Positions 48,607 to 63,099 of a stretch of 64,000 nt of DNA are shown piece after piece; within the stretch, counting starts at the first letter, position 1, and each line of letters opens with the position of its first letter. Position numbers and translations under genes: made by a program. The stretch is taken from NCBI GenBank assembly GCA_016186175.1, contig JACPMB010000015.1, forward strand, positions 1,116 through 65,115, written 5' to 3'. The notes under the pieces were generated by a model. The model worked only from the letters and a program-made list of their open reading frames with translations, was not told the origin of the DNA and did no database searches. The DNA comes from Candidatus Peregrinibacteria bacterium (GTDB lineage Bacteria > Patescibacteriota > Gracilibacteria > Peribacterales > Peribacteraceae).

Positions 48607-49302
48607 TCACCTCGCGCTGCTCACACCCGCATTTGACGCGCGTCCTCCTCTCTTTCCGTACGGGGCGCGCGGGCCGGAACGATTGTCTATCAGGCCGTCG
48701 AAAAGATTGGCCTTGGAGGAAACTGAACCGCGCAGCACGGCCTGCTGTTTGATGCGCGCATTGGATATATCGTTGCCGAGGCCGGTCGTACTGGCCGGCG
48801 TCTTTCCTTCGATGAACTTCTTGCAAAGCGTCATGTACCCCGCCGAGAAGCCCGGGAAATCCCAGCAGCGGCCGACCTTCGCGGCGCGGGCGAGCTCTGC
48901 CCGTTCCCTGACGGATAGAGCGTCGTCGGCAACCTTGTCCTCGGGCGGTTTCACGTAGTCGCTCGTCGAGACCGGATTGGAGCGCACCGGTTCCACTATC
49001 ACGCGATCCTCGACGGGATGATCGAGATAAAAATCAATGCTTTTGCGATTATTGATGTCCGGTTTGGCGAGGCCGGTTTCTCCGTTCTGCAATCGCGTGT
49101 TGTACATCTGCAGCGCGCGGCCGTAATACTGTCGGTCTTTTGGCGTCACGGCGCGGTGAAGCCGAACTATCGTGCCGTCCTTCGTTTGGAACGCGACATT
49201 TTGCGTCGCCGCGCGCAGCGACTGCGATACAGAAAGCGGAAGCGAAATCCCAACGAACAACGAAACTGCGAAAATTGCGACGTAGCGGACTTTGAAGGTC
49301 AT
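48607..49302 (-). CDS. Hypothetical secreted protein
   Basis: 231 aa with the signal-like start MTFKVRYVAIFAVSLFVGISLPLSVSQSLRA. Confidence 0.55.
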   Translation of the reverse strand: MTFKVRYVAIFAVSLFVGISLPLSVSQSLRAATQNVAFQTKDGTIVRLHRAVTPKDRQYYGRALQMYNTRLQNGETGLAKPDINNRKSIDFYLDHPVEDRVIVEPVRSNPVSTSDYVKPPEDKVADDALSVRERAELARAAKVGRCWDFPGFSAGYMTLCKKFIEGKTPASTTGLGNDISNARIKQQAVLRGSVSSKANLFDGLIDNRSGPRAPYGKRGGRASNAGVSSAR

Positions 49303-50323: not shown

Positions 50324-50995
50324 TCAGAGTTTTTTCAGCGCCTCCTCAAACACTTTCGGCATCTCTGCCTCGATCGTGATTTCCTTCCCGGTAATAGGAT
50401 GCGGCAGCGATACCCTGAGAGCGTGCAGAAAGAATCGCCGGTATCCGGTATATTTGCTGAATTTCCGGTTAAATTTCTCGTCTCCGTAGAGCGCATCGAG
50501 AACCAGGGGATGATGAATCATCTGGAAATGACGTCGGATTTGATGGTGGCGGCCGGTCTCAATCTCCACTTCCACATATGTTGAACCTTCAAAACGAGCA
50601 AGAACGGCAAAGCGGGTCAGAGCATACACTTGTCCTGAGCGGAGCGAAGGATTGCCATCCCCCTTCGCCCGCGCGGGCAGCGGCATGTTTATTTCGCCGT
50701 GATTATCTTCAATCCTGCCGGCGACTATCGTCCTGTAGACCTTTTTCCAGCCACTGAATTTAGATTTAATCGCGCAGGCTAGGACTGTTTTGTTACGCGC
50801 GAACACTACCACTCCAGAAGTTTCGAAATCCAGGCGATTTAGCGGATGAATGCCAGGATATTCTTTTTTAAGGAAATCCAGCATCGGCAGCCTCTGTACG
50901 TTCCCCGCTCCCTTCACAACCAATTCGCCCGCCAGTTTGTTCACCGCAAGAATCGCGTCGTCGCAATGGAGAACGCGGTCGCGTGAGATCGGCAT
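50324..50995 (-). CDS. RluA-family pseudouridine synthase (no S4 domain)
   Basis: ..HPLNRLDFETSGVVVFARN.. (catalytic Asp motif), ..GRHHQIRRHF.. Confidence 0.85.
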   Translation of the reverse strand: MPISRDRVLHCDDAILAVNKLAGELVVKGAGNVQRLPMLDFLKKEYPGIHPLNRLDFETSGVVVFARNKTVLACAIKSKFSGWKKVYRTIVAGRIEDNHGEINMPLPARAKGDGNPSLRSGQVYALTRFAVLARFEGSTYVEVEIETGRHHQIRRHFQMIHHPLVLDALYGDEKFNRKFSKYTGYRRFFLHALRVSLPHPITGKEITIEAEMPKVFEEALKKL

Positions 50996-51456: not shown

Positions 51457-53139
51457 ATGAATAAGACATGCAGGCAGTGTGCCGCGCCATTCACCGTCGG
51501 CCAGGATGACCTCGCGATGCTGAGCAAGCTCTCGCCCCAGATCGGCGGCAATGTGTACCAGCTGCCGGCGCCGGCCCTGTGCCCCGACTGCCGACTGCAG
51601 CGGCGTCTGGCATGGCGCAACGAACGCGCATTGTACTTCCGCAATTGCGACTCCACCGGCAACCGCATACTTTCGATATTCGCGCCCGACGGCCCATACA
51701 AGGTTTTCCACCATGAAGCGTGGTACGGCGACGGCTGGAACGCTCTGGACTGCGGGCGGCCGTTTGATTTTTCGCGGCCGTTCTTCGATCAATTCATGGA
51801 TCTGATGGAGGCTGTCCCGCTGCTCGCGCTCAATATCATCAGCGTGCAGAATTGCGAGTACGTGAACGAATGTGGATGGTCGAAGAACTGCTACCTCACA
51901 ATCGAGGCAGATCAGAACGAGGATTCGATGTACGGCTACCGCGTGTTTTTCGTCAAAAACTGCGTTGATTGCACCGAAGTCGTCCGATCGCAGCAATGCT
52001 ACGAGTGCATGGATTGCGAGAATTGCTTCAATCTCCGCTGGAGCCAGCTGTGCAAACAGTGCTCGGACTCGAGCTTCCTCTTCGACTGCCGCGGGTGCGC
52101 AAATTGCTTCGGTTGCGCCGGGCTGCGGCAGAAAAAGCACTGCCTCTTTAACGCTCAACTGACGGAAGAAAAGTTCAAATTTCATATGAAAACCTTCGAT
52201 CCATGCAATCCAAGCCATCTGAAGGCCGCACTGGAGCAATTCGAGAAAATAAAATTCTCCGTTCCGCGCAAAGCATTCGTCGGGGAACAGAACGACAATG
52301 TTTCGGGCGGCTACATTTTCCAGAGCAAGAACGCGCACGACTGTTTCAACATCCGCGGCTGCCGTGACTGCAGATACGTGGACTACATCCGCGATAGCAG
52401 GGACTGCATGGATTATTTCGTCTGGGGCGACAAAGCCGAGCAGGTGTACGAAGCCGAGTCCTGCGGGCACAATGTGCAGAACATCCGATTCTGCTGCACG
52501 TGCCTGGAAAACGTTCACGATCTCCTCTACTGCTATCTTTGCGCGCTCGGCACCAACAACTGCTTAGGATGCGTCGGCCTGAAGCGCCAGAAGCACTGCA
52601 TTCTCAACAGGCAATACGCGAAGGAGGAATACGAAGCGCTCGTGCCGAAGATCATCAAACACATGCAGAACTCCGGAGAGTGGGGCGAGTTCTACCCTGT
52701 AAACAACAGTCCTTTCGCGTACAACGAAACGACGGCGCAGGATTACTTCCCGATGACGCAGGAGCAGGCGACCGCGCTCCAGTGGCGCTGGAAGGAAAAA
52801 CTCCCTTCCCATGCCGGAACAGGCAAAGTTGAGCCGGTTCCACATGGTGACATCGCCAACATATCTGATGACGTCACCAAGAAGATATTCGCCTGCGAGG
52901 CGACGGGCAAATCTTTCCGCGTCACCGTCCAAGAACTGCGGTTCTACCGCGACAACCGCCTTCCCCTCCCCCGCTTCCATCCCGATGAACGCCATAAGCG
53001 GCGTATGACCATGAGGAATCCGAGGAAACTATGGGATCGGACGTGCGCGACGTGCAGAACGAAGATACGGACGTCCTACGCTCCCGAGCGGCCGGAGAAA
53101 ATTTTGTGCGAGGAGTGCTATTTGAAGGAGGTCTATTGA
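51457..53139 (+). CDS. Cys-rich repeat protein, paralog 1 (zinc-ribbon termini, two CxxC-repeat modules)
   Basis: 560 aa. N-terminus MNKTCRQCAAPFTV..CPDCRLQRRLAWRNERALYFRNC.., module ends ..CRGCANCFGCAGLRQKKHCLFNAQLTEE.. and ..CLGCVGLKRQKHCILNRQYAKEEYE.., C-terminus ..LPLPRFHPDERHKRRMTMRNPRKLWDRTCATC..YAPERPEKILCEECY.. Confidence 0.8.
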   Translation: MNKTCRQCAAPFTVGQDDLAMLSKLSPQIGGNVYQLPAPALCPDCRLQRRLAWRNERALYFRNCDSTGNRILSIFAPDGPYKVFHHEAWYGDGWNALDCGRPFDFSRPFFDQFMDLMEAVPLLALNIISVQNCEYVNECGWSKNCYLTIEADQNEDSMYGYRVFFVKNCVDCTEVVRSQQCYECMDCENCFNLRWSQLCKQCSDSSFLFDCRGCANCFGCAGLRQKKHCLFNAQLTEEKFKFHMKTFDPCNPSHLKAALEQFEKIKFSVPRKAFVGEQNDNVSGGYIFQSKNAHDCFNIRGCRDCRYVDYIRDSRDCMDYFVWGDKAEQVYEAESCGHNVQNIRFCCTCLENVHDLLYCYLCALGTNNCLGCVGLKRQKHCILNRQYAKEEYEALVPKIIKHMQNSGEWGEFYPVNNSPFAYNETTAQDYFPMTQEQATALQWRWKEKLPSHAGTGKVEPVPHGDIANISDDVTKKIFACEATGKSFRVTVQELRFYRDNRLPLPRFHPDERHKRRMTMRNPRKLWDRTCATCRTKIRTSYAPERPEKILCEECYLKEVY

Positions 53140-53164
53140 GGAATGCACTTGTCATCCTTCGCTT
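53071..53164 (+). repeat. 94-nt near-identical segment shared by the 3' ends of paralogs 1 and 2 (copy 1)
   Basis: 1 mismatch to 54782..54875. Spans the last ~23 codons, the stop and ~25 nt of flank (..ggaatgcacttgtcatccttcgctt). Confidence 0.9.
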
Positions 53165-53173
53165 GTTCTTCCC

Positions 53174-54850
53174 ATGGAACGATCCTGCACCAAGTGCGGC
53201 CAGACCTTCACCATCCACCCCGATGAACAGGAGTTCGTGAAGAAGATGGTCTTCACGTTCGGGGAGAAAACGATCGCTCTCCCGCTCCCTAAAGAGTGTC
53301 CTGACTGCCGGTTGAAAAACCGCACTTGCTACCGCAACGAGCAGTACCTCTACAAAGTCCGCTCGGCGTTCTCCGGCAAGGACATCGTTTCGATCATGAG
53401 CGAGAAGCCTGTGTGGGGGGAGCCGTATAAGATCTATGATCAGGATGAATGGCGCAGTAACGCGTGGGATCCATTGAGTTACGGGCGGGAGTTTGATGCT
53501 CAGCGTCCGTTCTTTGAGCAGTTCGCGCAACTGCAGAAGAGCGTGCCGCGCATGGCGCTGATCACGTTGGGAAATGAGAATTCCGGCTTCACGACGGGGA
53601 CGGGGTATTGCAAGAATTGCTACCTGATCAACTCCTCGGAGAATTGCGAGGATTGCTACTACGGCAAACTCCTGCAGAAGTGCAGCGACTCGATGGATTG
53701 CAGTTATCTCTATAATTCGCAGCTCTGCTACGAATGTTTCTCCGTTTACGATTCATATAACTGCCAGTGGCTCTCATTCAGCGCCAATTGCCGTGATTGC
53801 TTCTTTGCGAGCAATCTGACGGCCTGCAGCAACTGCTGCCTCTGCACCAATCTTAATCACAGAGAGTACTGTTTCATGAACAAGCCGATGAAGAAGGAGG
53901 AATACGACAAGCGTCTGAAGGAATTTCGCGGATATTTCGAGAGAACGGAACAAATGAAGGAGATTCGACGCAGAATGATGCAAACTATGCTGCGCAAGTA
54001 CGCCAACATCGTGAACTGTCAGGACTGCACCGGCGATTACCTGGAGAATTCGAAGCACTGCCTTGATTGCTACGACGTGAACGAGAGTCAGGACAGTCGC
54101 TATGTCACCGTCGGCGTGAATGTGAAGGACAATTACGACTGCAGCAACATGTATCTGAAGTCTGAACTCTGTTACATGACGCTCGGGACGATTGAAGTCT
54201 ACGGATCCGCCTACTGTTTGTTCGTGTTTCATTCGCAGCGGCTGCTCTTTTGCGACCATTGCTTCAACTGCAGTGATTGCTTCGGATGCGTGGGGCTCAC
54301 GCGAAAGAAGTTCTGCATCTTGAACAAGCAGTATTCAAAGGAAGAATACGAGGAGCTCGTTCCAAAAATCATCACGAATATGGAGAAGTTGGGTGAGTGG
54401 GGGCAGTATTTTCCTACAAAGTATTCTCCTTTCGGTTACAACGAATCCCTCGCTTCGGAGTACTTTCCGCTCTCGGAGAAAGAAGCGAAGGCGCAGGGTT
54501 TCCATTGGCGAGAGAAGGACGCGCGTGACTACAAGCCACAGACGACCGCACTCGCTGACCGGATTGATCAGACGACTGATTCAGTGACGAAGGAAATCCT
54601 CGCCTGTAAGCAATGCACCAAGAACTATCGTGTGATCCCGCAGGAACTCTCGTATTACCAGAAGCAGGTTCTGCCGGTTCCTCATAGATGCCCGGAATGC
54701 CGGCACGCAGATAGGCTGAAGCTGCGCAATCCGCGGAAACTCTGGCGGTGCAAGTGCGCGAATTGCGGGAAAGACATCAACACGACCTACGCTCCCGAGC
54801 GGCCGGAGAAAATTTTGTGCGAGGAGTGCTATTTGAAGGAGGTCTATTGA
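53174..54850 (+). CDS. Cys-rich repeat protein, paralog 2
   Basis: 558 aa. MERSCTKCGQTFTI..CPDCRLKNRTCYRNEQYLY.., ..CFNCSDCFGCVGLTRKKFCILNKQYSKEEYE.., ..LPVPHRCPECRHADRLKLRNPRKLWRCKCANCGK..YAPERPEKILCEECY.. Confidence 0.8.
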   Translation: MERSCTKCGQTFTIHPDEQEFVKKMVFTFGEKTIALPLPKECPDCRLKNRTCYRNEQYLYKVRSAFSGKDIVSIMSEKPVWGEPYKIYDQDEWRSNAWDPLSYGREFDAQRPFFEQFAQLQKSVPRMALITLGNENSGFTTGTGYCKNCYLINSSENCEDCYYGKLLQKCSDSMDCSYLYNSQLCYECFSVYDSYNCQWLSFSANCRDCFFASNLTACSNCCLCTNLNHREYCFMNKPMKKEEYDKRLKEFRGYFERTEQMKEIRRRMMQTMLRKYANIVNCQDCTGDYLENSKHCLDCYDVNESQDSRYVTVGVNVKDNYDCSNMYLKSELCYMTLGTIEVYGSAYCLFVFHSQRLLFCDHCFNCSDCFGCVGLTRKKFCILNKQYSKEEYEELVPKIITNMEKLGEWGQYFPTKYSPFGYNESLASEYFPLSEKEAKAQGFHWREKDARDYKPQTTALADRIDQTTDSVTKEILACKQCTKNYRVIPQELSYYQKQVLPVPHRCPECRHADRLKLRNPRKLWRCKCANCGKDINTTYAPERPEKILCEECYLKEVY

Positions 54851-54875
54851 GGAATGCACTTGTCATCCTTCGCTT
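54782..54875 (+). repeat. 94-nt near-identical segment shared by the 3' ends of paralogs 1 and 2 (copy 2)
   Basis: See 53071..53164. The first 28 nt (acgacctacgctcccgagcggccggaga) also recur at 57180..57207 in paralog 3. Confidence 0.9.
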
Positions 54876-54889
54876 CGCTCAGGATGACA
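54861..54889. repeat. Hairpin with conserved 11-nt loop (family member H1)
   Basis: Stem tgtcatcct / aggatgaca (9 bp). Loop tcgcttcgctc, the complement of GAGCGAAGCGA. Confidence 0.8.
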
Positions 54890-54905
54890 ACGCAAGTGTA
54901 TGTAT

Positions 54906-54928
54906 GGCCCTTCGCTCCGCTCAGGGCC
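54906..54928. repeat. Hairpin with conserved 11-nt loop (H2)
   Basis: Stem ggccct / agggcc (6 bp). Loop tcgctccgctc, the complement of GAGCGGAGCGA. Confidence 0.75.
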
Positions 54929-55349
54929 CCGGAGCCCATTCGGAAGCCTGGGCGGAGCGAAGGCTTTCCATATCCAAATCGCTTGTCATGCTGAGCCCTT
55001 CGCTCCAGCTCTGAACAAGCTCCGTCGAACCACAACCCCGAAAGAACTTACAATGTGTTTGATTCTGACATTCTGACAATTTCGGAATTTTTTCGTACTC
55101 CCCGTTAATCAATGCCTCTTTCTTTTCTCTTCTCCAACCTTTGAGAATTTTTTCCCATCGAATTGCTGCACGGACATCTCTGAACGATTCTGAATGGACA
55201 AGACTCACTGGACGACGCTTTAACGTATAGCAGTGTTCGTTTATTCCTCGTTGATGCTCTTCTACGCGTGCGATCACGTTATTGGTGATACCGGTGTAAT
55301 AGCTGCCATCAGCACATTGAAGAATGTATACGGTGTAGTCACGTCTCAT
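54921..55349 (-). CDS. GIY-YIG nuclease-family protein (UPF0213-like)
   Basis: MRRDYTVYILQCADGSYYTGITNNVIARVEEHQRG.. is the GIY..YxG..R..H core. The last ~50 codons read through hairpin repeats, so the C-terminal tail is probably repeat-derived. Confidence 0.75.
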   Translation of the reverse strand: MRRDYTVYILQCADGSYYTGITNNVIARVEEHQRGINEHCYTLKRRPVSLVHSESFRDVRAAIRWEKILKGWRREKKEALINGEYEKIPKLSECQNQTHCKFFRGCGSTELVQSWSEGLSMTSDLDMESLRSAQASEWAPGP

Positions 55350-55469
55350 GTATGCACCGTAAAACAACAGACTTTCCTTTGGGAACGTACATTTGGCATT
55401 TCATCTTTTTCAATTACAAGATTTACTCTAATACAAGCCAATTTTTGGCGTTCTATAGGTGCGTAGAAC

Positions 55470-55496
55470 GGGACCCTGAGCGGAGCGAAGGGTCCC
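55470..55496. repeat. Hairpin with conserved 11-nt loop (H5)
   Basis: Stem gggaccct / agggtccc (8 bp). Loop GAGCGGAGCGA. Confidence 0.8.
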
Positions 55497-55515
55497 CTAA
55501 AAAGAGGTTCTTTGT

Positions 55516-55538
55516 CATGCTGAGCGTAGCGAAGCATG
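55516..55538. repeat. Hairpin with conserved 11-nt loop (H6)
   Basis: Stem catgct / agcatg (6 bp). Loop GAGCGTAGCGA. A partial duplicate, gcgtagcgaagcat, follows. Confidence 0.75.
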
Positions 55539-55586
55539 GGCGTAGCGAAGCATCTCTCATATTCAGAATAACGTATACTGGCACGC

Positions 55587-57248
55587 ATGCCGACCTGCGC
55601 AGAGTGCATTCAATCGTTCGCGATCACCGATCGCGACCGCGCGTTCTACCGAAAAATGGACGTTCCTCCCCCGAAATCCTGTCCCGACTGCCGATTCATG
55701 CGCAGACTCGCGGAGCGCAACGCGAGAACGCTTTACAAAAGGAAGTGCGACCTTACCGGCAGGGAATTCATTTCGCCGTACCACCCGGATCGGCCGTTCC
55801 CTGTCTACCACCCCGACACATGGTGGGGCGACGGATGGGACGAGACGGCATACGGACGCAGCGCCGACTTCTCGCGTCCGTTCTTCGACCAACTCGGCGA
55901 ACTCCTGAATGAAGTTCCGCACCAGGGGCAGTTCGTCGTGCCGGGAACCATGCAGAACAGCGACTACGTGAACTGCGCTGGGTATCTGAAGGATTGCTAC
56001 CTGATCGCGGAAACCGACTACAACGAAAACTGTTACTACGGTAATCGTATCTTCTACAACAAGGCAATGGTTGACTGCAGCAACGTCTACGAGAACGAAC
56101 TCTGCTACGAGTGCATTGATTGCCGCAAGTCGTACGGGCTCAAGTTCTGTGAGGAGTGCGAAAACTGCAGCGGGAGCTTCTTCCTCAGTAACTGCATCGC
56201 CTGCCGCGACTGCATCAGCTGCATCAACCAGCGGCAGAAGCATCACATGATCATGAACCAGCAGCTGACTGAGGAGGAATACGAGAAACGGAAGGCCGCG
56301 CTGGAGCTGAACACATATGACGGCCTCCAGAAGATGCGGCGGGATGCCGACGAGTTCTTCCTAACCCAGCCGCACAAAGCCGTCCAGAATGAGCACAACG
56401 AGCGTTCGACGGGCAATCATCTCTATAATTCCAAGGATTGCGAAGACTGCTACGACTGCAAGGATGTGGAAGACTGCGTCCACTGCGCTCGAGTGTTCTC
56501 GGTGAAATCGTCCATGGATTACACGTCGTGGGGCGACCGGTCGGAGTTGATGTACCAGTGCGCGTCGAGCGGCGACCGGGCGTACAATCTCAAATTCTGC
56601 ACGACGTGCACCACCGGGAATAGCAACCTCGAGTACTGCGCTCGCTGCTCGGAATGTTCAGACTGTTTCGGCTGCGTAGGCATGCGGAAAAAGAAGCACT
56701 GCATCTTCAACAAGCAATATTCCAAAGAAGAGTACGCGAAACTCCGGGACCAATTGATTACGCGCATGAAACAATCAGGTGAATGGGGAGAATTTTTCCC
56801 AAAATCCCTCTGTCCGTTCGCGTACAACGAAACGATCGCCATGGAATATTTTCCGCTTGCGAAGGAAGAGGCTCTCAAACGCGGATACGCGTGGAGGGAT
56901 CCGGTGGATGATCCGCCGAATGTCCCCCGCACGATTTCCGCGGAGCAATTGCCGCAGACGATCGTCGAAGTTTCCGATGACGTCCTGAACTGGGCCGTGA
57001 CGTGCCCGGTCACCGGACGTCCATTCCGCATCATCAGACAGGAACTCGCTTTCTACCTGCAAATGGACCTGCCGCTCCCGCGCAAGCACCCCGATCAACG
57101 CCATGCCGAACGGATAGCGCGGCGCTCCGGCGTCCGGATGTACTCCCATGCATACGCGAAGTGTTCACGGGATATTCAAACGACCTACGCTCCCGAGCGG
57201 CCGGAGATCGTGTATTGCGAACCTTGTTATCTTAAAACAGTCTACTGA
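55587..57248 (+). CDS. Cys-rich repeat protein, paralog 3
   Basis: 553 aa, 38 Cys by my count. MPTCAECIQSFAIT..CPDCRFMRRLAERNARTLYKRKC.., ..CSECSDCFGCVGMRKKKHCIFNKQYSKEEYA.., ..GEWGEFFPKSLCPFAYNETIAMEYFPL.., ..LPLPRKHPDQRHAERIARR..YAPERPEIVYCEPCY.. Confidence 0.8.
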   Translation: MPTCAECIQSFAITDRDRAFYRKMDVPPPKSCPDCRFMRRLAERNARTLYKRKCDLTGREFISPYHPDRPFPVYHPDTWWGDGWDETAYGRSADFSRPFFDQLGELLNEVPHQGQFVVPGTMQNSDYVNCAGYLKDCYLIAETDYNENCYYGNRIFYNKAMVDCSNVYENELCYECIDCRKSYGLKFCEECENCSGSFFLSNCIACRDCISCINQRQKHHMIMNQQLTEEEYEKRKAALELNTYDGLQKMRRDADEFFLTQPHKAVQNEHNERSTGNHLYNSKDCEDCYDCKDVEDCVHCARVFSVKSSMDYTSWGDRSELMYQCASSGDRAYNLKFCTTCTTGNSNLEYCARCSECSDCFGCVGMRKKKHCIFNKQYSKEEYAKLRDQLITRMKQSGEWGEFFPKSLCPFAYNETIAMEYFPLAKEEALKRGYAWRDPVDDPPNVPRTISAEQLPQTIVEVSDDVLNWAVTCPVTGRPFRIIRQELAFYLQMDLPLPRKHPDQRHAERIARRSGVRMYSHAYAKCSRDIQTTYAPERPEIVYCEPCYLKTVY

Positions 57249-57518
57249 TTAAAATCTCCGATACGCATCTTTCCTGTGTCCGACTTTAACGACGGTGATG
57301 ATGAGAACGCCTTTATTGACGGAATAGACGACGCGATACCGTCCTATGCGGATGCGGTAGAAATCTTCATACCCATGCATTTTTTTCACTCCTTGCGGGA
57401 ACGGATCTTCAGCAAGGTTGCGAATCGCGGCGTTGATATGCTCACGGATGGGATCACGCAAATTCCGCAGATCACGCTCGGCGCTTTGTCTTATGACAAT
57501 GCGGTATCGGTTGTTCAT
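57249..57518 (-). CDS. RelE/ParE-family type II toxin
   Basis: 89 aa. ..YRIVIRQSAERDL..FYRIRIGRYRVVYSVNKGVLIITVVKVGHRKDAY... Overlaps the antitoxin by 4 nt. Confidence 0.8.
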   Translation of the reverse strand: MNNRYRIVIRQSAERDLRNLRDPIREHINAAIRNLAEDPFPQGVKKMHGYEDFYRIRIGRYRVVYSVNKGVLIITVVKVGHRKDAYRRF

Positions 57519-57760
57519 TTCTTCTTCTTCGAAGGGAAAGCTTTTTCAAAAGGTATCAACGGTTCATTCTTCCGCTCCTCGATCGCCTGCATATCCTCAA
57601 AATCTTCGATCATTTCCATCAACATTTCGTAATCATCGAAGGGAACGACCACCGAATGCATCTTGGAATTCACAATGAGATATGCGGCCTGCCTCTTCGG
57701 CAGGGCCTTCGTGCCATGCCTCTTAAGATCCTGAAGAGTGATGGTAGGAAAGGTACTCAT
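57515..57760 (-). CDS. Phd/YefM-like type II antitoxin
   Basis: 81 aa from ATG 57760. ..ITLQDLKRHGTKAL..AAYLIVNSKMHSVVVPFDDYEMLMEMIEDFEDMQAIEE... Confidence 0.7.
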   Translation of the reverse strand: MSTFPTITLQDLKRHGTKALPKRQAAYLIVNSKMHSVVVPFDDYEMLMEMIEDFEDMQAIEERKNEPLIPFEKAFPSKKKK

Positions 57761-57853
57761 ATCGGTATTGATAATAGTACCTTTATTGTACCTAAGCACG
57801 CGTTGTCAGTCAAGTGTTATCCTGCTTCCAGGCAATCAAATTGGAAATTTCGC

Positions 57854-58222
57854 TTACTGATGATTGAGAGTGGGATGCTTATAACCGAATTGTTCCATTA
57901 CCCGGACACGCGCGCGCCTGAGCGCAATGTTTATGCCCCTCATCATGTCCGGCGAAATCATTTCGTCTCTCGCCCTGATGATCCCGTCCAGGTCACCGCA
58001 AAGCGACTCCCACTGTTCTTTTTCAATTTCAGTTCCGCCTGGAAACCCACGCAGCCGCTGCCGGATGCTTTCGTACAGCGACTGCAACGCCGTGCCATTG
58101 CATTTTATGCACCGGTGATGCCGCGCTGACCCTCTCTCCCACTGCGTGCCGGTGATGTTTGCGCTCAATGCCTTGTATTTTTCATCGAGCATGTCGAGCA
58201 TTGCCTGGCGCGGAGATTGCAT
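57854..58222 (-). CDS. Hypothetical protein
   Basis: 122-aa ORF. No family recognised. Confidence 0.4.
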   Translation of the reverse strand: MQSPRQAMLDMLDEKYKALSANITGTQWERGSARHHRCIKCNGTALQSLYESIRQRLRGFPGGTEIEKEQWESLCGDLDGIIRARDEMISPDMMRGINIALRRARVRVMEQFGYKHPTLNHQ

Positions 58223-58308: not shown

Positions 58309-60546
58309 ATGGCTCTGAGATACATGCACATAGTCATCCCGCAGGGCGTTGAGGGGAACAAGAAGCTTGAGTCCAGATTCCAGGAACTTCTGGTGAATCT
58401 TTGGAACACGTTCACCGGAAAGCGCGTTTCGCTAGAATTCTACGGCTACGCGCAGTACACCTATTTCTTCATCGTGCTTGAAGACAATCTTTTTGAAACG
58501 GTGGAGGGTCTCGTCTACGCCACATTTCCGGACGCTGAAATCAAGGAAATGAAGGACTACACGCTTAATCTCGATGCAAAGAGCCAGACGATCGCAGGGG
58601 CCGAGGTGACGCTGAATCACTCGGACATTTATCCCATCAAGACATACGACGGTTTTGAAGAGGACAGTTGCTCGCGTTTGTTTTCGGTCATCTCGAAAAT
58701 CGGGCGCGACGACCAAGTGTGGGTGCAGATCATAGCGGAACCTCAGAACGACACCGGGGTGTTCCATTATCTCCGTAACTGGAGAAGAAGGCGCGCGGAT
58801 GCGGGGCACTTTTTCTCAATCAGGGATCGCCTTCGCGAAGGCGGCCGCAAGGGCGTCGGCCGGCGGCGGCACGACAAGGCTCTGGAAAAAGCCGGAATCA
58901 AGCCTTTCCGCGTTAGCATCCGCTGCGCATATATTTCCGACGCGCAGTCTGCCGGACGACACCTGGAAGCCGTGGCTTCGAGTTTTTCGCAATTCAACGA
59001 GAAGGACATCAATGAAATGCGCTGGCATCGCGCGAAAAACGCCGGAAAATTCGTCGCTCAATTCCGGGCGCGCAGCCACGCCGTTCCTTACATCCTGAGC
59101 GCGAAGGAGATTGCGACGCTCTATCACTTCCCCAACGCAGATGCTGTGCCGCACATAGTGCACGTGCTTGCGCGCAAGTCCGACCCGCCGCAGGACCTGC
59201 CGAAGATGGGCGAAAAAGACGTCAGCGCGTTCGGGCTGACAAATTACCACAACAATTTCGTGCCGTTCGGCATCCGCCGCAGCGACAGGCGCCGCCACCT
59301 GTACACCGTCGGAAAATCCGGCGCCGGGAAGAGCAAACTGCTGGAGCTGCTGATCAACGAGGACATTAAGAACGGCGAGGGCATCGCGGTGCTCGATCCG
59401 CACGGAGACCTGATAGACGCGATAATGCGGTACATTCCAAAAAGCAGAATAGAGGACGTCGTTCTGCTAGATCCGGGCGATACTGAATTCCCGATCGCGT
59501 TCAATCCGCTCGAAAAAGTGGACGAAGCCTTCAAAATGCAGGTGACGCTTGGCTTCCTGCAGATTTTCAAGAAGCTCTTCGGTAACAACTGGTCCGATCG
59601 TCTCGAGCACGTGCTGCGCTACACGACTCTGGCTCTTCTGGACAGTCCGAATACGACCGTGCTTTCGATACTCAAGATGCTTACGGACAAGAATTACCGC
59701 CAGAAGATCGTCGCGCGCATCCAGGATTCCGTCGTCAAGAACTTCTGGGTCGCGGAGTTCGCGGCGTGGAGCGAGAAATTCGACGCCGAGGCGATTACTC
59801 CGCTTCTCAACAAAGTGGGTCAGTTCGTCGCCACCAACATGATCCGCAACATCATCGGGCAGTCCAAAACGAAGTTCGATATCCGCGAGATCATGGACAA
59901 GAAGAAGATCCTGCTGATGAAAGTCAGCAAGGGTTTGCTCGGCGAAGAGAACTCGTCGCTCATCGGCTCCATGTTCATTACAAAGCTGTACCAGGCGGCC
60001 ATGAGCCGGGCGGACACGCCCGAGGAAAAGCGCACTGACTTCTACTTCTACGTTGACGAGTTCCAGATTTTCGCGACCGACACGTTCGCGGAAATTCTCT
60101 CGGAAGCACGCAAATACAAACTGAACATGACTCTCGCGCATCAGTACATGGGGCAGCTAAGCGCCGTCGTGCGCAAAACCGTGTTCGGCAACGTGGGCTC
60201 CATTATCAATTTCCGCGTCGGAGCCGAGGATGCGGTGATACTAGCGGAAGAATACACGCCGACATTCAAAGAGCGCGACATCATCAACCTTGGCGTCCGC
60301 GAATTCTACATCAAGATGTCGGTGAACGGAGAGCTGCGCGAGGCTTTCTCCGGCCGGACGCTGGACGCCCCCAAGGTAGAGAAGGATTTTACCCGGGAAA
60401 TAATCTCCGCATCGCGCAAAAAATACTGCCTGCCGAAAGCTGAAGTGGAAGAAACGCTGAAAAAATGGGACGAGGCGGCTGCAGCGCCGCCGTCGGAGGA
60501 AGAGCGGGCGGCAGTTGAAGAAAAATTCGAGGAACCGCTGATCTGA
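58309..60546 (+). CDS. TraD/VirD4-like T4SS-type ATPase (soluble, CPR 'T4SS DNA-binding domain' type)
   Basis: Walker A ..YTVGKSGAGKSKLLELL.., ..GIAVLDPHGDL.., Walker B ..FYFYVDEFQIFATD.., ..ARKYKLNMTLAHQYMGQL... No TM helices. Confidence 0.7.
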   Translation: MALRYMHIVIPQGVEGNKKLESRFQELLVNLWNTFTGKRVSLEFYGYAQYTYFFIVLEDNLFETVEGLVYATFPDAEIKEMKDYTLNLDAKSQTIAGAEVTLNHSDIYPIKTYDGFEEDSCSRLFSVISKIGRDDQVWVQIIAEPQNDTGVFHYLRNWRRRRADAGHFFSIRDRLREGGRKGVGRRRHDKALEKAGIKPFRVSIRCAYISDAQSAGRHLEAVASSFSQFNEKDINEMRWHRAKNAGKFVAQFRARSHAVPYILSAKEIATLYHFPNADAVPHIVHVLARKSDPPQDLPKMGEKDVSAFGLTNYHNNFVPFGIRRSDRRRHLYTVGKSGAGKSKLLELLINEDIKNGEGIAVLDPHGDLIDAIMRYIPKSRIEDVVLLDPGDTEFPIAFNPLEKVDEAFKMQVTLGFLQIFKKLFGNNWSDRLEHVLRYTTLALLDSPNTTVLSILKMLTDKNYRQKIVARIQDSVVKNFWVAEFAAWSEKFDAEAITPLLNKVGQFVATNMIRNIIGQSKTKFDIREIMDKKKILLMKVSKGLLGEENSSLIGSMFITKLYQAAMSRADTPEEKRTDFYFYVDEFQIFATDTFAEILSEARKYKLNMTLAHQYMGQLSAVVRKTVFGNVGSIINFRVGAEDAVILAEEYTPTFKERDIINLGVREFYIKMSVNGELREAFSGRTLDAPKVEKDFTREIISASRKKYCLPKAEVEETLKKWDEAAAAPPSEEERAAVEEKFEEPLI

Positions 60547-61690: not shown

Positions 61691-62080
61691 TCACAGTGTA
61701 CGCCTTGGCAGACACTTTTTTTTGGCGATTTGCAGGAGATACGGTTGCGGCGGTAACCACTGCCCGCTGACGGGAATAATGTCGATGTCCTTGTGTGGCA
61801 CGTTCGTCGCTGTACTCATTGGCCCACTGATGTCGCGAAAAATTGCATGGAGGTACATTCCTCCTGGACGGACAAATTGGAAAAGTTGTCGCGAGAATTC
61901 CACTTGCTGTTCTAGAGGCAACTTTGGCACCGTCGCGATCACAATATCCGCGCATTCCGGCTCAAGAATATCGGGCAAGCTTGATGCGTACGCCTGGTGG
62001 AACTGCACGCGCGGGTCATTGACGAAAGGCTGCTGATTTTCTCTCATGACAGAGACATTTTTTGGATCCTGTGCTACCAC
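61691..62080 (-). pseudogene. Class I methyltransferase-like ORF lacking the SAM-binding motif I (apparently 5'-truncated by the adjacent AT-rich island)
   Basis: ..DPRVQFHQAYASSLPDILEPECADIVIATVPKLPLEQQVEFSRQLFQFVRPGGMY.. corresponds to post-I to motif VI of a Rossmann methyltransferase. The frame is closed by TGA ~45 nt upstream, inside AT-rich DNA. Confidence 0.45.
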
Positions 62081-63090
62081 AAAAAGCTCAATGCACTTTT
62101 TGTCTTTGGTGATGAATATATGCTCTCATCACCGTCCCAAACCAACATAATCTCTCTATCCGACTCCAGATAATCATGCATCCACTCAATCTTGACCGGC
62201 AATTGAACCTCTATTGCAAGAACTAATTTAGCATTTGGAACATTCTGTAAATATCGGTACTCATATAATTGACTCACTCCTTTCCTGATTTGTGACCTTG
62301 CATTCTCTTCTGTGATTGATTTCATTTCGAATATATAATCATTCTGTTCCACTCTAGCAGCCAAATCGATCAATTGATTTGATTTCGGAAGATGCCCTTT
62401 GTTACTTATCCTATTGGCAACCAAGTTGACTAAATGTATATGTGCATTATCAGAGCGATCCAATTTTGCCTGGTCTTTGTATATCAAAATTGAATCTCTA
62501 GCTTTATTGCTTCTCTCTTCCACAATTTGATACTCGCTCAAGCTTCCGCTACGCGGCAATATTGGCTCATCAACATTATTGAAGTCTAAAATGGGAACTT
62601 GCTCATTGATATTCGAAGAGACAAAAACCTTCTGGTCACTTTCACTAACTATCCCCAGAAATTTCAGCCATGCAACAAGTGTACTAGTTCTTCGTGGTAA
62701 CATTGATTCTCCGATTTCTTCAGTAACACTACCCAAATATTCAACAAGGTTATCCTTCGTAACGCCTTCTTCACTTGTTTCAAGAAAAGCAATAAGTCGC
62801 TGAAAAATCCTCACATTTAAAATTGAACGTGCCAATATTGAGCTGCGTAAATTCTCACTCGACTGAAGTAGTTTCTTGCCTGATTCGGTCAACACAGATT
62901 GATTGCCTTCATTCCTTATGAAACCCAATATTTCAGCGGCCCTCCTATAGTATCTGCCCTGCCTATCCACTTTACCAATGCGTTGTGATATTTCTTGAAA
63001 TGTTTTTGCCCCCTCTGATACTGCCATCACTGTCTTCACTACATCCTCCAATACATCTGCCTGTGGTATATCATTGCTGTGGATCTTCAT
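62074..63090 (-). CDS. Type II restriction endonuclease-like protein (N-terminal wHTH-like region plus C-terminal PD-(D/E)xK)
   Basis: 338 aa. ..LIDLAARVEQNDYIFEMKSITEENARSQIRKGVSQLYEYRY.. fits a D..ExK nuclease core. It is adjacent to the DPPY methyltransferase and lies in AT-rich DNA. Confidence 0.6.
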   Translation of the reverse strand: MKIHSNDIPQADVLEDVVKTVMAVSEGAKTFQEISQRIGKVDRQGRYYRRAAEILGFIRNEGNQSVLTESGKKLLQSSENLRSSILARSILNVRIFQRLIAFLETSEEGVTKDNLVEYLGSVTEEIGESMLPRRTSTLVAWLKFLGIVSESDQKVFVSSNINEQVPILDFNNVDEPILPRSGSLSEYQIVEERSNKARDSILIYKDQAKLDRSDNAHIHLVNLVANRISNKGHLPKSNQLIDLAARVEQNDYIFEMKSITEENARSQIRKGVSQLYEYRYLQNVPNAKLVLAIEVQLPVKIEWMHDYLESDREIMLVWDGDESIYSSPKTKSALSFLW

Positions 63091-63099
63091 AGTAAGAGA

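What the first reader, a model, noticed from the sequence alone, without database searches (positions are those of the whole stretch)
51457..57248. Tandem triplication of an unassigned ~555-aa cysteine-rich protein family with mirrored zinc-ribbon ends
Three same-strand paralogs (560, 558 and 553 aa) share one architecture.
1. The N-terminus is C-x2-C..F-x-[IV]-x3-[DE]-x2-[FY]..P-x-P-x2-CP-x-CR-x2-R-x3-RN-x3-LY-x3-C, then ..W..D.W..YG..FDF.RPFF.Q...
2. Two internal modules consist of closely spaced C-x2-C / C-x3-C repeats. Each module ends in a conserved block, best seen in the second one: C-[FL]-G-C-V-G-[LM]-x-[RK]-[KQ]-K-[HF]-C-I-[LF]-N-[KR]-Q-Y-[SA]-K-E-E-Y.
3. Next comes a conserved ..GEWG[EQ][FY][FY]P..[SC]PF[AG]YNE[ST]..[DEM][EY]YFP[LM].. 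segment.
4. The C-terminus repeats the N-terminal theme: ..F-R-[VI]-x3-E-L-x-[FY]-Y..LP[LV]P..[HC]P[DE]..R..[RNPRKLW]..C..C..YAPERPE..CE.CY.

Paralog 3 has 38 Cys (6.9%). None of the three has a signal peptide or TM helix. I cannot name a family for them. The paralogs are strongly diverged except at their 3' ends. They are separated by hairpin repeats and a GIY-YIG gene, and are followed by a toxin-antitoxin pair and a T4SS-type ATPase. Plausible roles are multi-zinc or Fe-S scaffolds, or nucleic-acid-binding proteins. Nothing here establishes a function.
Basis: partly seen in the sequence, partly recalled or inferred. Interest (0 to 1): 0.75.

Follow-up and report, generated by a model that had tools for sequence, protein, structure and literature searches.

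The report
Uncharacterised cysteine-rich zinc protein array
Three neighbouring genes in a Candidatus Peregrinibacteria genome belong to a large, conserved, never-studied family of cytoplasmic cysteine-rich proteins that sits in old tandem arrays next to a dedicated regulator and a DNA-transfer-type ATPase; what the proteins do is unknown.

Summary
Three same-strand ORFs (560, 558 and 553 aa; 41, 43 and 38 Cys) are 37-41% identical and share the described architecture. Profile comparison shows the N- and C-terminal fingers are homologous (E 7e-17), and so are the two internal Cys modules (E 1.6e-21).

These are real genes under purifying selection (dN/dS 0.07-0.15). NCBI calls them hypothetical proteins of a Candidatus Peregrinibacteria MAG.

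This is not a local triplication. The family has about 2,200 50%-identity clusters at E<1e-30 and is almost confined to Peribacteria, Gracilibacteria and Abawacabacteria. It normally forms arrays of 2-9 old paralogues (24-57% identical), each with its own orthologues.

Two neighbours recur: a divergent TrmB-type regulator with a conserved 18-bp palindrome (missing from this window), and a soluble VirD4/TraD-like ATPase (present here).

No Pfam, NCBIfam, PADLOC, PDB or BFVD match covers the core. Only the terminal treble-clef fingers are recognisable. A confident AlphaFold model (pLDDT 91), a strict period-3 Cys pattern and 12-residue strand spacing suggest two narrow Cys-lined beta-solenoids. 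These modules are specific to each paralogue, whereas the finger ends are constant.

My working model, which is inference, is a set of zinc-stabilised nucleic-acid-binding adaptors with paralogue-specific recognition modules.

The parts
51457..53139 (+). Paralogue P1 (560 aa, 41 Cys; NCBI MBI2636266, hypothetical protein HYW84_02990)
   Evidence: ORF. Family HMM score 718 bits. Best orthologue is 64% identical in L001. dN/dS 0.15. Name.
53174..54850 (+). Paralogue P2 (558 aa, 43 Cys; MBI2636267, HYW84_02995). It belongs to the most widely conserved orthologous group and keeps all four terminal zinc sites.
   Evidence: 120 listed homologues at >=52% identity; dN/dS 0.07. CxxC positions.
55587..57248 (+). 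Paralogue P3 (553 aa, 38 Cys; MBI2636269, HYW84_03005). The first finger of its C-terminal pair and the first CxxC of its last finger are degenerate.
   Evidence: Orthologue 78% identical in L072. AlphaFold model pLDDT 91.2, pTM 0.90.
53174..53359 (+). P2 N-terminal treble-clef finger (C5, C8, C42, C45) followed by a basic helix (R46, R50, R54, N55)
   Evidence: The Cys are 87-97% conserved and the Arg/Asn 93-97% conserved across 216 family members. Homologous to the C-terminal finger. Helix 43-51 in the model. Net charge +4.
53558..53887 (+). P2 Cys module 1 (residues 129-238). Cys fall every third residue in about 12-residue units, and the module ends ...C-x2-C-x2-C-x8-C-x-x-N.
   Evidence: Homologous to module 2. 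Cys autocorrelation is 0.68 at lag 3 and 0.62 at lag 12, and negative at every lag that is not a multiple of 3. Conservation is 0.76-0.82 within the orthologous group but 0.48-0.49 family-wide.
53999..54331 (+). P2 Cys module 2 (residues 276-386), ending CFGCVGLxRKKxCIxNKQY
   Evidence: (C372 99%, C381 96%, N384 100%). phrog_15341 matches both modules.
54392..54511 (+). P2 GEWG..PFxYNE..YFP segment, part of the family-constant non-Cys domain
   Evidence: G410 99%, Y422 98%, N423 96%. pLDDT 90-98. No match in any library.
54596..54847 (+). P2 C-terminal finger pair: a zf_Tbcl-like finger (C478, C481, C506, C509) plus CxxC-x17-CxxC (C528, C531, C549, C552)
   Evidence: PF13451 16.8 bits and PF23477 20.2 bits, both below their cut-offs. 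TIGR04272 E 9e-4. 18 of 40 homologues match PF23477. A PDB profile search hits only the second LIM finger. BFVD zinc-ribbon proteins superpose at rmsd 0.7 A.
53012..53164 (+). P1 copy of the gene-conversion tract shared with P2 (the P2 copy is 54723-54875)
   Evidence: 85% identity over 153 nt and 91% over the last 78 nt. Third-position identity is 74% here against 39% elsewhere. The tract runs past the stop into a truncated hairpin arm.
54723..54875 (+). P2 copy of the gene-conversion tract
54860..55551 (.). Insertion between P2 and P3: the GIY-YIG gene (54921-55367, -) flanked by six palindromic repeats with core TGAGCG[AGT]AGCGAAG. This is incidental and not part of the family.
   Evidence: PF01541 E 5.5e-14. 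24-nt inverted repeat 54908-54931 / 55469-55492. Repeat count 13 against 3.5 expected. Sequence.
57249..57799 (-). ParE toxin and RelB/Phd-like antitoxin pair inserted between P3 and the ATPase. This is incidental.
   Evidence: PF05016 E 1.6e-14; PF18506 E 4.7e-6. Not a recurrent neighbour in other loci.
58309..60546 (+). Conserved downstream neighbour: a soluble VirD4/TraD-like P-loop ATPase (745 aa; Walker A at 335, Walker B at 579, no TM helix)
   Evidence: PF02534 E 8.5e-10 and PF10412. NF045973 and TIGR03743 hits. phrog_5156 E 3.5e-68. Hydropathy and Walker motifs. Adjacent to arrays in 23 loci. 11 of 12 orthologues have an array next door.

Best explanation
SHOWN
- P1, P2 and P3 belong to a large, uncharacterised protein family. 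It is almost confined to the Peribacteria / Gracilibacteria / Abawacabacteria branch of the Candidate Phyla Radiation.
- The proteins are cytoplasmic and under strong purifying selection.
- One architecture is shared by all: an N-terminal treble-clef finger (plus a degenerate second finger), a conserved alpha linker, Cys module 1, two helices, Cys module 2, a conserved GEWG/PFxYNE segment, a treble-clef finger, and a CxxC-x17-CxxC finger.
- Genomes carry several old paralogues in same-strand arrays. Cassettes usually start with a divergently transcribed TrmB-type regulator that has an 18-bp palindrome (TGTA[GA]AA-N4-TTCTACA). Arrays usually end next to a soluble VirD4/TraD-like ATPase.
- The window holds a reduced three-gene array. 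It has lost, or never had, the regulator and the palindrome. It has picked up a GIY-YIG/hairpin element and a toxin-antitoxin pair.

INFERRED
1. The Cys residues mainly bind zinc. There would be four Cys4 sites in the terminal fingers, plus stacked CxxC knuckles inside the modules.
2. Each module folds as a narrow solenoid of about 12 residues per turn, with Cys pointing into the core.
3. The two basic finger ends, each with a conserved Arg ladder on a helix, form a constant chassis that holds nucleic acid.
4. The solenoid surfaces are conserved within each orthologous group but differ between paralogues. They would give each paralogue a different target.
5. The family therefore acts as a set of regulated, target-specific adaptors, possibly handing cargo to the neighbouring ATPase.
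For: Reality and conservation: 2,200 clusters at E<1e-30; at least 590 genomic copies; dN/dS 0.07-0.15.

Architecture and internal duplications.

Arrays of old paralogues.

TrmB link: PF01978 E 1e-12. 47 of 56 TrmB(-) genes are followed within 700 nt by a family gene. The palindrome has 27 matches in 974 kb, and 18 of them lie in TrmB|family intergenic regions.

ATPase link: present in 23 loci. 11 of 12 close ATPase orthologues sit beside an array. No other gene family recurs in more than 5 loci.

Zinc fingers and basic ends.

Solenoid: the model has pLDDT 91.2 and pTM 0.90 with 12-residue strand spacing. Cys show strict period 3. All top Foldseek hits are beta-helix proteins.

Constant ends and paralogue-specific modules: the ratio of within-group to family-wide conservation is 1.5-2.0 for the modules and 1.1-1.2 for the ends.

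The same gene order appears in the complete Ca. Peribacter riflensis genome, where the genes are left as hypothetical: PMC4736985, Table S2, genes 657-666.
Against: - No biochemical or expression data exist.
- Nucleic-acid binding rests only on the finger type, the net charge and the Arg ladder.
- Metal identity is untested.
- Many module Cys positions are only 30-80% occupied, so they cannot all be obligatory ligands.
- The Foldseek beta-helix hits are weak (E >= 0.0097, TM 0.07-0.10). I could not inspect coordinates.
- The ATPase family extends to contigs that carry no array, so the ATPase does not need these proteins.
- In the window an opposite-strand toxin-antitoxin pair separates P3 from the ATPase, so adjacency here does not mean co-transcription.
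- Adjacency could be inherited synteny.
- This window has neither the TrmB gene nor the palindrome.
Confidence: 0.4

Rival explanations
1. The proteins are substrates or effectors of a type IV-like export route. The neighbouring VirD4-like coupling ATPase would recruit them and pass them to a host or partner cell. The paralogue array would then be an effector repertoire of an episymbiont.
For: - The arrays are consistently adjacent to a VirD4/TraD-like ATPase, and no other flanking gene is conserved.
- Multi-paralogue arrays are typical of effector families (established knowledge).
- The PeerJ 2016 table lists a VirB4-like gene elsewhere in Ca. Peribacter riflensis.
Against: - The ATPase has no transmembrane domain. 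Its more distant homologues occur without arrays and with housekeeping-type neighbours.
- The paralogues are old and under strong purifying selection, with no recent duplicates. This is unlike arms-race effectors.
- Tightly zinc-cross-linked folds are poor secretion substrates (inference).
- The C-terminus is a conserved folded finger, not a disordered signal.
Confidence: 0.15
2. The proteins are enzymes. The family-constant non-Cys domain (W..D.W..FDF.RPFF.Q together with GEWG..PFxYNE..YFP) would be a catalytic centre acting on nucleic acid or another polymer. The fingers and solenoids would position different substrates.
For: - Invariant or near-invariant polar residues lie outside the Cys sites: Q116 100%, D108 91%, E408 91%, N423 96%, E424 90%, E491 98%.
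- This domain has very high model confidence.
- One homologue, P0256, carries an N-terminal GNAT acetyltransferase domain.
Against: - No match to any catalytic family in Pfam, NCBIfam, PDB or BFVD.
- The GNAT fusion is a single case among 150 representatives and could be a gene-calling artefact.
- The invariant Asn residues (N136, N236, N384) sit at module boundaries and look structural.
Confidence: 0.15
3. The proteins are iron-sulfur (multi-cluster) redox or electron-transfer proteins that use the CxxCxxCxxC runs.
For: - CxxCxxCxxC runs close each module, for example P1 C181-C190 and C211-C220, and P3 C203-C212.
- Cys content is 6.9-7.7%.
Against: - No Fer4-type or other Fe-S Pfam hit, even at E<=1.
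- The spacing is CxxCxxCxxC, not the ferredoxin CxxCxxCxxxCP (established knowledge).
- Occupancy of most module Cys positions varies between 30% and 80% across the family.
- The best-conserved Cys quartets match zinc treble-clef and LIM-type fingers.
Confidence: 0.08
4. The genes are cargo of a mobile or defence island and act as an anti-phage or addiction-related system.
For: The window region also holds a toxin-antitoxin pair, a GIY-YIG element and a low-GC restriction-modification-like block. The ATPase has weak PADLOC hits to mad8 and HerA.
Against: - No PADLOC hit for the three proteins.
- Absent from 50,697 phage records, with only one partial hit in IMG/VR.
- The arrays are vertically conserved, with orthologous members across orders.
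- The toxin-antitoxin pair and the GIY-YIG gene are not recurrent neighbours.
Confidence: 0.05

Closest known systems
Small 'zinc-ribbon / probable treble clef' proteins: Pfam PF13451 (zf_Tbcl), and PF23477 (zf_Tbcl_2) = NCBIfam TIGR04272 (CxxC-x17-CxxC domain)
   Same: - The C-terminal 85 residues have a CxxC...CPxCR finger followed by an exact CxxC-x17-CxxC finger. The N-terminus is a diverged copy.
- 18 of 40 homologues match PF23477 at E<1e-3.
- Phage 'putative zinc-ribbon domain' models superpose on the finger at rmsd 0.7 A.
   Different: - Those families are single small domains of unknown function.
- Here they cap a 555-aa protein, and about 400 residues of its core match nothing.
- The window proteins score below the Pfam and NCBIfam cut-offs: 15.7-20.2 bits against 27, 16.8 against 24, and 18.9 against 36.
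LIM / cysteine-rich protein (CRP) second zinc finger
   Same: C-x2-C-x17-C-x2-C spacing and local sequence (KCxKCxKxIxTTxxxxxxxxxYCxxCY). Profile search against PDB gives E 2.7e-4 to CRP1.
   Different: Only 30 residues match. There is no first LIM finger with His and no LIM architecture. Pfam LIM scores 15.8 bits against a cut-off of 22.9.
Beta-solenoid proteins: left-handed beta-helix acyltransferases and gamma-carbonic anhydrases. From memory, also the 12-residue Cys-braced beta-helix of the Tenebrio antifreeze protein and pentapeptide-repeat proteins.
   Same: Short strands recur regularly, and there is a 12-residue unit with an inward-facing repeated residue. All of the top 50 Foldseek PDB hits are beta-helix proteins.
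   Different: - The hits are weak (E 0.01-0.3, TM 0.07-0.10, 5-13% identity).
- There is no hexapeptide [LIV]-G-x4 motif and no Pfam Hexapep hit.
- The repeated residue is Cys at period 3, in a cytoplasmic protein.
- The resemblance to the antifreeze protein comes from memory and was not tested.
DnaJ cysteine-rich domain (CxxCxGxG zinc knuckles)
   Same: The modules end in CFGCVG, a CxxCxG knuckle. There is a weak NCBIfam DnaJ hit at P2 residues 266-321 (E 0.005).
   Different: The score is 16 bits against a 619-bit cut-off. There is no J domain and no four-knuckle, two-zinc unit. Here about 8 knuckle-like units occur per module with variable Cys occupancy.
Large extracellular cysteine-rich proteins of Ca. 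Peribacter riflensis (Anantharaman et al. 2016, PMC4736985)
   Same: Same lineage, and a similar Cys content of about 7%.
   Different: Those proteins average 1,655 aa, mostly carry signal peptides and are predicted to be extracellular. None of the 20 listed is 550-570 aa with about 40 Cys. The present family is 545-600 aa with no signal peptide. In that paper's Table S2 it appears only as hypothetical genes 658-666.

Membership tests
PF23477 zf_Tbcl_2 / TIGR04272 CxxC-x17-CxxC domain | Two CxxC pairs separated by exactly 17 residues, and a score above the curated cut-off (27 bits Pfam, 36 bits NCBIfam) | tested here: inconclusive
   - The spacing is exact in P1 (C530/533...C551/554) and P2 (C528/531...C549/552). 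P3 lacks the first CxxC.
- Scores are 15.7 and 20.2 bits against 27, and 18.9 against 36.
- Some homologues pass: PF23477 is precomputed for P0085, P0089, P0103 and P0109, and 18 of 40 match at E<1e-3.
- This concerns one domain only, not the whole protein.
PF13451 zf_Tbcl (probable treble clef domain) | CxxC ... CPxCR finger scoring above 24 bits | tested here: inconclusive
   P2 residues 476-514 score 16.8 bits (E 0.0065), below the cut-off. The N-terminal finger is homologous to it by hhalign (E 7e-17). In P1 and P3 the C-terminal copy has lost its Cys.
LIM domain (PF00412) | Two contiguous zinc fingers, C-x2-C-x16-23-H-x2-C then C-x2-C-x16-21-C-x2-(C/H/D) | tested here: not met
   Only the second-finger half aligns: 30 residues, 15.8 bits against 22.9.
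4Fe-4S ferredoxin-type cluster-binding proteins | CxxCxxCxxxC(P) motifs recognised by the Fer4 family models | tested here: not met
   No Fer4-type hit at E<=1. The spacing is CxxCxxCxxC, and Cys occupancy is variable.
Left-handed beta-helix (hexapeptide-repeat) proteins | Hexapeptide [LIV]-G-x4 repeats with 18 residues per turn, and a significant structural superposition | tested here: not met
   No Hexapep Pfam hit. Foldseek gives E 0.0097-0.3, TM 0.07-0.10 and rmsd above 12 A. The repeat here has period 3/12.
DnaJ-type cysteine-rich domain | Four CxxCxGxG knuckles binding two zinc ions, next to a J domain and Gly/Phe region | tested here: not met
   16 bits against a 619-bit cut-off, and no J domain.
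Type IV secretion substrates / relaxosome accessory proteins | Recruitment by a membrane-anchored coupling protein of a T4SS; a translocation signal; a T4SS channel encoded in the genome | not testable with these tools
   Only adjacency to a VirD4-like ATPase is shown. That ATPase has no TM segment. No T4SS channel genes recur in the loci.
Known anti-phage defence systems (PADLOC-DB 2.0) | A match to a defence-system protein model | tested here: not met
   0 families for P1, P2 and P3 at E<=0.1.
TrmB-regulated cassette (the family's own genomic syntax as defined here) | A divergent TrmB-type gene and a TGTA[GA]AA-N4-TTCTACA palindrome upstream of the first family gene | tested here: not met
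   No TrmB-like ORF anywhere in the 64-kb window. No palindrome upstream of P1 or P3 at <=3 mismatches. The feature is present in most other loci.

The most novel reading that the evidence does not exclude
The two internal modules would be a previously undescribed fold: a very narrow beta-solenoid of about 12 residues per turn and four 3-residue sides. Its core would be a column of cysteine thiolates holding a stack of metal ions.

This lineage of the Candidate Phyla Radiation would have diversified that fold into 5-11 paralogue-specific recognition modules per genome, all mounted on a constant nucleic-acid-binding zinc-finger chassis. The whole set would form a regulated adaptor system, with TrmB-type regulators and a shared operator, that feeds a soluble VirD4-like translocase. 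That would amount to a lineage-specific route for handling or transferring nucleic acid or protein in these host-dependent bacteria.
Probability: 0.15. Interest if true: 0.8.

Novelty: new variant of a known kind. Interest (0 to 1): 0.55.

Why it matters
Peregrinibacteria and Gracilibacteria have genomes of about 1.0-1.3 Mb. Even so, they keep several copies of this 1.7-kb gene, up to 9 in one 17.6-kb stretch and 7 in the complete Ca. Peribacter riflensis genome. All copies are under purifying selection, and the arrays have their own regulator and operator. That is a large investment for a reduced genome and points to a lineage-defining function.

The family has no curated model, no solved relative and no published analysis. 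Its core appears to be a new cysteine-lined repeat fold. Even a simple result, such as metal content or nucleic-acid binding, would annotate thousands of 'hypothetical proteins'. It could also shed light on the widespread but unstudied soluble VirD4-like ATPase of these bacteria.

Tried and rejected
Family and structure searches
- Pfam, NCBIfam, PADLOC and PHROGs scans gave nothing above threshold for the core. phrog_15341, of unknown function, matches the modules at E 1e-9 but carries no annotation.
- PDB sequence searches with a single sequence and with a profile matched only the last finger, which resembles the second LIM finger.
- Foldseek of the first, weaker model (pLDDT 78.7) found nothing in PDB. 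In BFVD only zinc-ribbon ends matched.
- Foldseek of the second model (pLDDT 91.2) gave only weak beta-helix hits.

Phage and viral origin
- tblastn against phage records found no match for P3. For the modules alone the best hit was E 0.06, to a Campylobacter phage CP220 hypothetical protein.
- IMG/VR gave one partial hit. I therefore rejected a viral origin.

RNA elements
- An Rfam scan of 50.9-58.4 kb found only chance miRNA-like hits on the hairpins.

Literature
- Searches on CPR zinc-finger paralogues, VirD4+TrmB, PF13451, zf-trcl and COG0433 found nothing on this family.
- The Cys-rich proteins discussed in PMC4736985 are a different, extracellular set.

Neighbourhood analysis
- I looked for a TrmB gene or the palindrome in the window and found neither.
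- I checked what flanks the more distant ATPase homologues and found no analogous array.
- A script bug inflated two locus counts ('any VirD4-like 43, any TrmB-like 62'). The correct numbers are 23 and 46 loci.

Domain fusions
- One homologue carries an N-terminal GNAT domain (P0256). Another has a C-terminal 250-aa extension with no Pfam hit (P0214). This is too anecdotal to build on.

Full report
**1. What is in the sequence**

Three same-strand ORFs lie at 51457-53139 (P1, 560 aa), 53174-54850 (P2, 558 aa) and 55587-57248 (P3, 553 aa). They are 37-41% identical, with 161 invariant columns.

They hold 41, 43 and 38 Cys (7.3, 7.7 and 6.9%). The highest 19-residue hydropathy mean is 1.0-1.4, so none has a transmembrane helix or a signal-like N-terminus.

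One spacing needs correcting: the conserved pattern is CR-x3-R-x3-RN.

Profile-profile comparison supports the 'mirrored' architecture:
- The N-terminal 70 residues are homologous to the C-terminal finger region (probability 98.8%, E 7e-17).
- The two internal Cys modules are homologous to each other (probability 99.4%, E 1.6e-21).

NCBI lists the three proteins as hypothetical proteins HYW84_02990, HYW84_02995 and HYW84_03005 of a Candidatus Peregrinibacteria MAG.

**2. Real genes in a large family**

- P2 alone finds more than 7,000 proteins at E<=1e-3 among the 8,000 candidates scored. Nearly all are 545-600 aa. Those that carry a name are 'hypothetical protein' from Peregrinibacteria, Peribacteraceae or Gracilibacteria.
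- A profile search of 1.84 billion 50%-identity representatives gives 2,200 clusters at E<1e-30 and 4,922 at E<1e-3.
The titles of the 77 loci kept name Peribacteria/Peregrinibacteria, Gracilibacteria, Abawacabacteria or 'Patescibacteria group', plus one Nomurabacteria record.
- Against their best orthologues the window genes show dN/dS of 0.07 (P2) to 0.15 (P1), with synonymous sites near saturation.

**3. Not a local triplication**

In the 78 loci examined, 51 carry two or more full-length copies on one strand. Some carry 8-9 copies within 17.6 kb, for example L028, L034 and L024.

The 346 within-locus pairs are 24-57% identical (median 42%), and none exceeds 60%. Each window paralogue has its own orthologue elsewhere: P2 81% in L002, P3 78% in L072, P1 64% in L001. 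The array is therefore an old, stable set of sub-families. The window holds a small version of it.

The only recent event is a gene conversion between the 3' ends of P1 and P2:
- The last 43 codons are 80% identical, and 74% at third positions, against 49% and 39% elsewhere.
- The tract runs 25 nt past the stop codon into a hairpin-repeat arm.
- The 3' end of P3 is similar only at the protein level.

**4. Conserved genomic syntax**

Clustering all flanking ORFs gave only two recurrent neighbours. The next most common family occurs in 5 loci.

(a) A protein of about 252 aa with a TrmB-type winged helix (PF01978, E 1e-12) occurs in 46 loci.
- It is nearly always divergently transcribed just upstream of a family gene. 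47 of 56 TrmB(-) genes are followed within 700 nt by a family gene, with a median gap of 176 nt.
- These intergenic regions share an 18-bp palindrome, TGTA[GA]AA-N4-TTCTACA.
- The palindrome has 27 matches (<=2 substitutions) in 974 kb. Of these, 18 lie between a TrmB gene and a family gene, and about 4 more probably do.
- The palindrome appears in loci titled Peribacteria, Abawacabacteria and Gracilibacteria. It is a strong candidate operator.

(b) A P-loop ATPase of about 746 aa with VirD4/TraD/TrwB-type domains lies directly downstream in 23 loci, including the window at 58309-60546.
- It has Walker A and B motifs and no transmembrane segment.
- In the reverse test, 11 of 12 metagenomic ATPase orthologues at >=60% identity with enough flanking DNA sit beside an array.
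- Homologues at <=52% identity almost never do, and they have other neighbours.
- The ATPase family is therefore broader than the Cys-rich family. Within this lineage the adjacency is kept even though everything else around it changes.

The same order appears in the published gene table of the complete Ca. Peribacter riflensis genome. Gene 657 is a 748-aa COG0433 ATPase. Genes 658, 659, 661, 662, 664, 665 and 666 encode proteins of 550-570 aa. Gene 660 is a TrmB regulator on the opposite strand. The genes are left as hypothetical. One carries a curator's note: 'C-rich ... [quoted passage not shown])' (PMC4736985 Table S2). This identification rests on lengths and order, not on sequence.

The window departs from the usual syntax in three ways:
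- It has no TrmB-like ORF and no palindrome upstream of P1 or P3.
- A GIY-YIG gene with six palindromic repeats sits between P2 and P3.
- A ParE/RelB-like pair on the opposite strand separates P3 from the ATPase.

**5. What the protein looks like**

Only the ends are recognisable.
- The C-terminus combines a CxxC...CPxCR finger with an exact CxxC-x17-CxxC finger. Hits to PF13451, PF23477 and TIGR04272 fall below threshold for the window proteins, but 18 of 40 homologues match PF23477.
- The last finger resembles the second LIM finger.
- Phage 'zinc-ribbon domain' models superpose on the finger.
- Both finger regions are net basic (+4 to +9), whereas the core is acidic.
- Each finger is followed by a helix carrying a conserved Arg ladder: R46, R50, R54/N55 at the N-terminus and R510, R514 at the C-terminus, 93-99% conserved.

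The core matches nothing in Pfam, NCBIfam, PADLOC, PDB or BFVD.

The modules have a regular repeat.
- Cys occupancy follows a strict period of 3 over about 100 residues in each module. Autocorrelation at lag 3 is 0.68 and 0.45, at lag 12 it is 0.62 and 0.40, and it is negative at every other lag.
- Occupancy of individual positions ranges from 30% to 99%.
- With 143 diverse sequences AlphaFold gives a confident model of P3 (pLDDT 91.2, pTM 0.90). Its module ends show a 12-residue pattern of one four-residue strand followed by two single bridges.
- Foldseek with this model returns no significant hit. All of the top 50 are beta-helix proteins (LpxD, LpxA, GlmU, gamma-carbonic anhydrase) at E 0.01-0.3 and TM 0.07-0.10.

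I read this as solenoid-like local geometry, not as homology. I could not inspect the coordinates.

**6. Constant and variable parts**

Within the P2 orthologous group the modules are the best-conserved regions (0.75-0.82). Across the whole family they are among the least conserved (0.41-0.50). The ratio of the two is 1.5-2.0. For the fingers, the N-linker and the GEWG segment the ratio is 1.1-1.2.

Each paralogue therefore keeps its own module surface, and all share the same ends. That pattern fits a common mechanism joined to paralogue-specific recognition.

**7. Most likely mechanism (inference)**

The proteins are probably zinc-stabilised cytoplasmic adaptors.
- The two basic finger ends would hold nucleic acid.
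- The two Cys-lined solenoids would present paralogue-specific surfaces.
- Expression of the cassettes would be set by TrmB-type regulators.
- The products may work with the neighbouring soluble VirD4-like ATPase.

I put this at about 0.4. The descriptive part of the account is far more secure than the mechanism.

The rivals are:

| Rival | Confidence | Main point for or against |
|---|---|---|
| Substrates or effectors of the ATPase | 0.15 | Weakened by old, conserved paralogues and a membrane-less ATPase that exists without them |
| Enzymes using the invariant polar residues of the constant domain | 0.15 | One GNAT fusion, P0256 |
| Fe-S proteins | 0.08 | No Fer4 hit, wrong spacing, variable occupancy |
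| Defence or mobile cargo | 0.05 | No PADLOC hit, absent from phages |

**8. Novelty and score**

The terminal fingers are known domain types. The 555-aa architecture, its repeat modules, the array organisation and the TrmB-operator/ATPase syntax are not described in any library or paper I could search. The family is visible only as 'hypothetical protein' entries and one curator's note.

I class it as a new variant of a known kind, namely zinc-finger proteins. There is a modest chance (about 0.15) that the core is a new metal-thiolate solenoid fold within a lineage-specific system.

Interest is 0.55. This is a solid, conserved piece of dark matter with a clear experimental entry point, but it has no demonstrated function and no direct bearing on a long-standing question.

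Noticed in passing
window 54860-55551; also 64, 6492, 6602, 8091, 50636: A dispersed palindromic repeat with core TGAGCG[AGT]AGCGAAG has 13 matches against 3.5 expected. Six copies crowd around the small GIY-YIG gene, for example TTGTCATCCTTCGCTTCGCTCAGGATGACAA. It looks like the GIY-YIG-associated hairpin element seen in many bacterial genomes; that comparison is from my memory and was not tested.
   Followed up: partly
window 50636-50649, inside ORF 50324-50995 (-): One copy of the hairpin-repeat core lies inside the RluA-type pseudouridine synthase ORF, in frame (peptide ...GNPSLRSGQ...). This suggests a repeat insertion tolerated within a coding sequence.
   Followed up: no
L001-L077, TrmB|family-gene intergenic regions (e.g. 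L025 4488, L033 7831, L048 7775, L024 4503, L067 5087): An 18-bp palindrome, TGTA[GA]AA-N4-TTCTACA, is conserved across loci titled Peribacteria, Abawacabacteria and Gracilibacteria. It usually lies 3-25 nt from the TrmB ORF start. It is a candidate TrmB operator and is absent from this window.
   Followed up: partly
window 58309-60546 (+): The VirD4/TraD-like ATPase has no TM segment and an unassigned 320-aa N-terminal region. It matches phrog_5156 (unknown function) at E 3.5e-68 and Bacillus phage proteins (SPO1 gp27.4, phage G gp156) at 20-25% identity. Homologues at 33-52% identity occur in many other metagenomic contigs with different neighbours.
   Followed up: partly
window 62001-64000: A low-GC block (38% against about 54%) holds a D12-class N6-adenine methyltransferase (63100-63984, -) and a DUF7226/PD-(D/E)XK-like protein (62074-63090, -). 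This is probably a horizontally acquired restriction-modification module.
   Followed up: no
P0256 (731 aa) and P0214 (808 aa), homologues from the representative search: Rare fusions. P0256 has an N-terminal GNAT acetyltransferase domain (PF00583, E 6e-9) in front of a full family member. P0214 has a 250-aa C-terminal extension with no Pfam hit, and by eye it contains a winged-helix-like stretch. These could be gene-calling artefacts.
   Followed up: partly
window 57854-58222 (-) and 48607-49302 (-): Two ORFs have no Pfam match. One is a 122-aa ORF between the antitoxin and the ATPase. The other is a 231-aa ORF with a hydrophobic N-terminus upstream of the TrpRS gene.
   Followed up: no
L059, L019, L020, L014, L062 (Gracilibacteria-type loci): Family genes appear here as many short fragments when translated with table 11. 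This fits the alternative genetic code (UGA read as Gly) reported for Gracilibacteria. I did not re-translate them with code 25.
   Followed up: no
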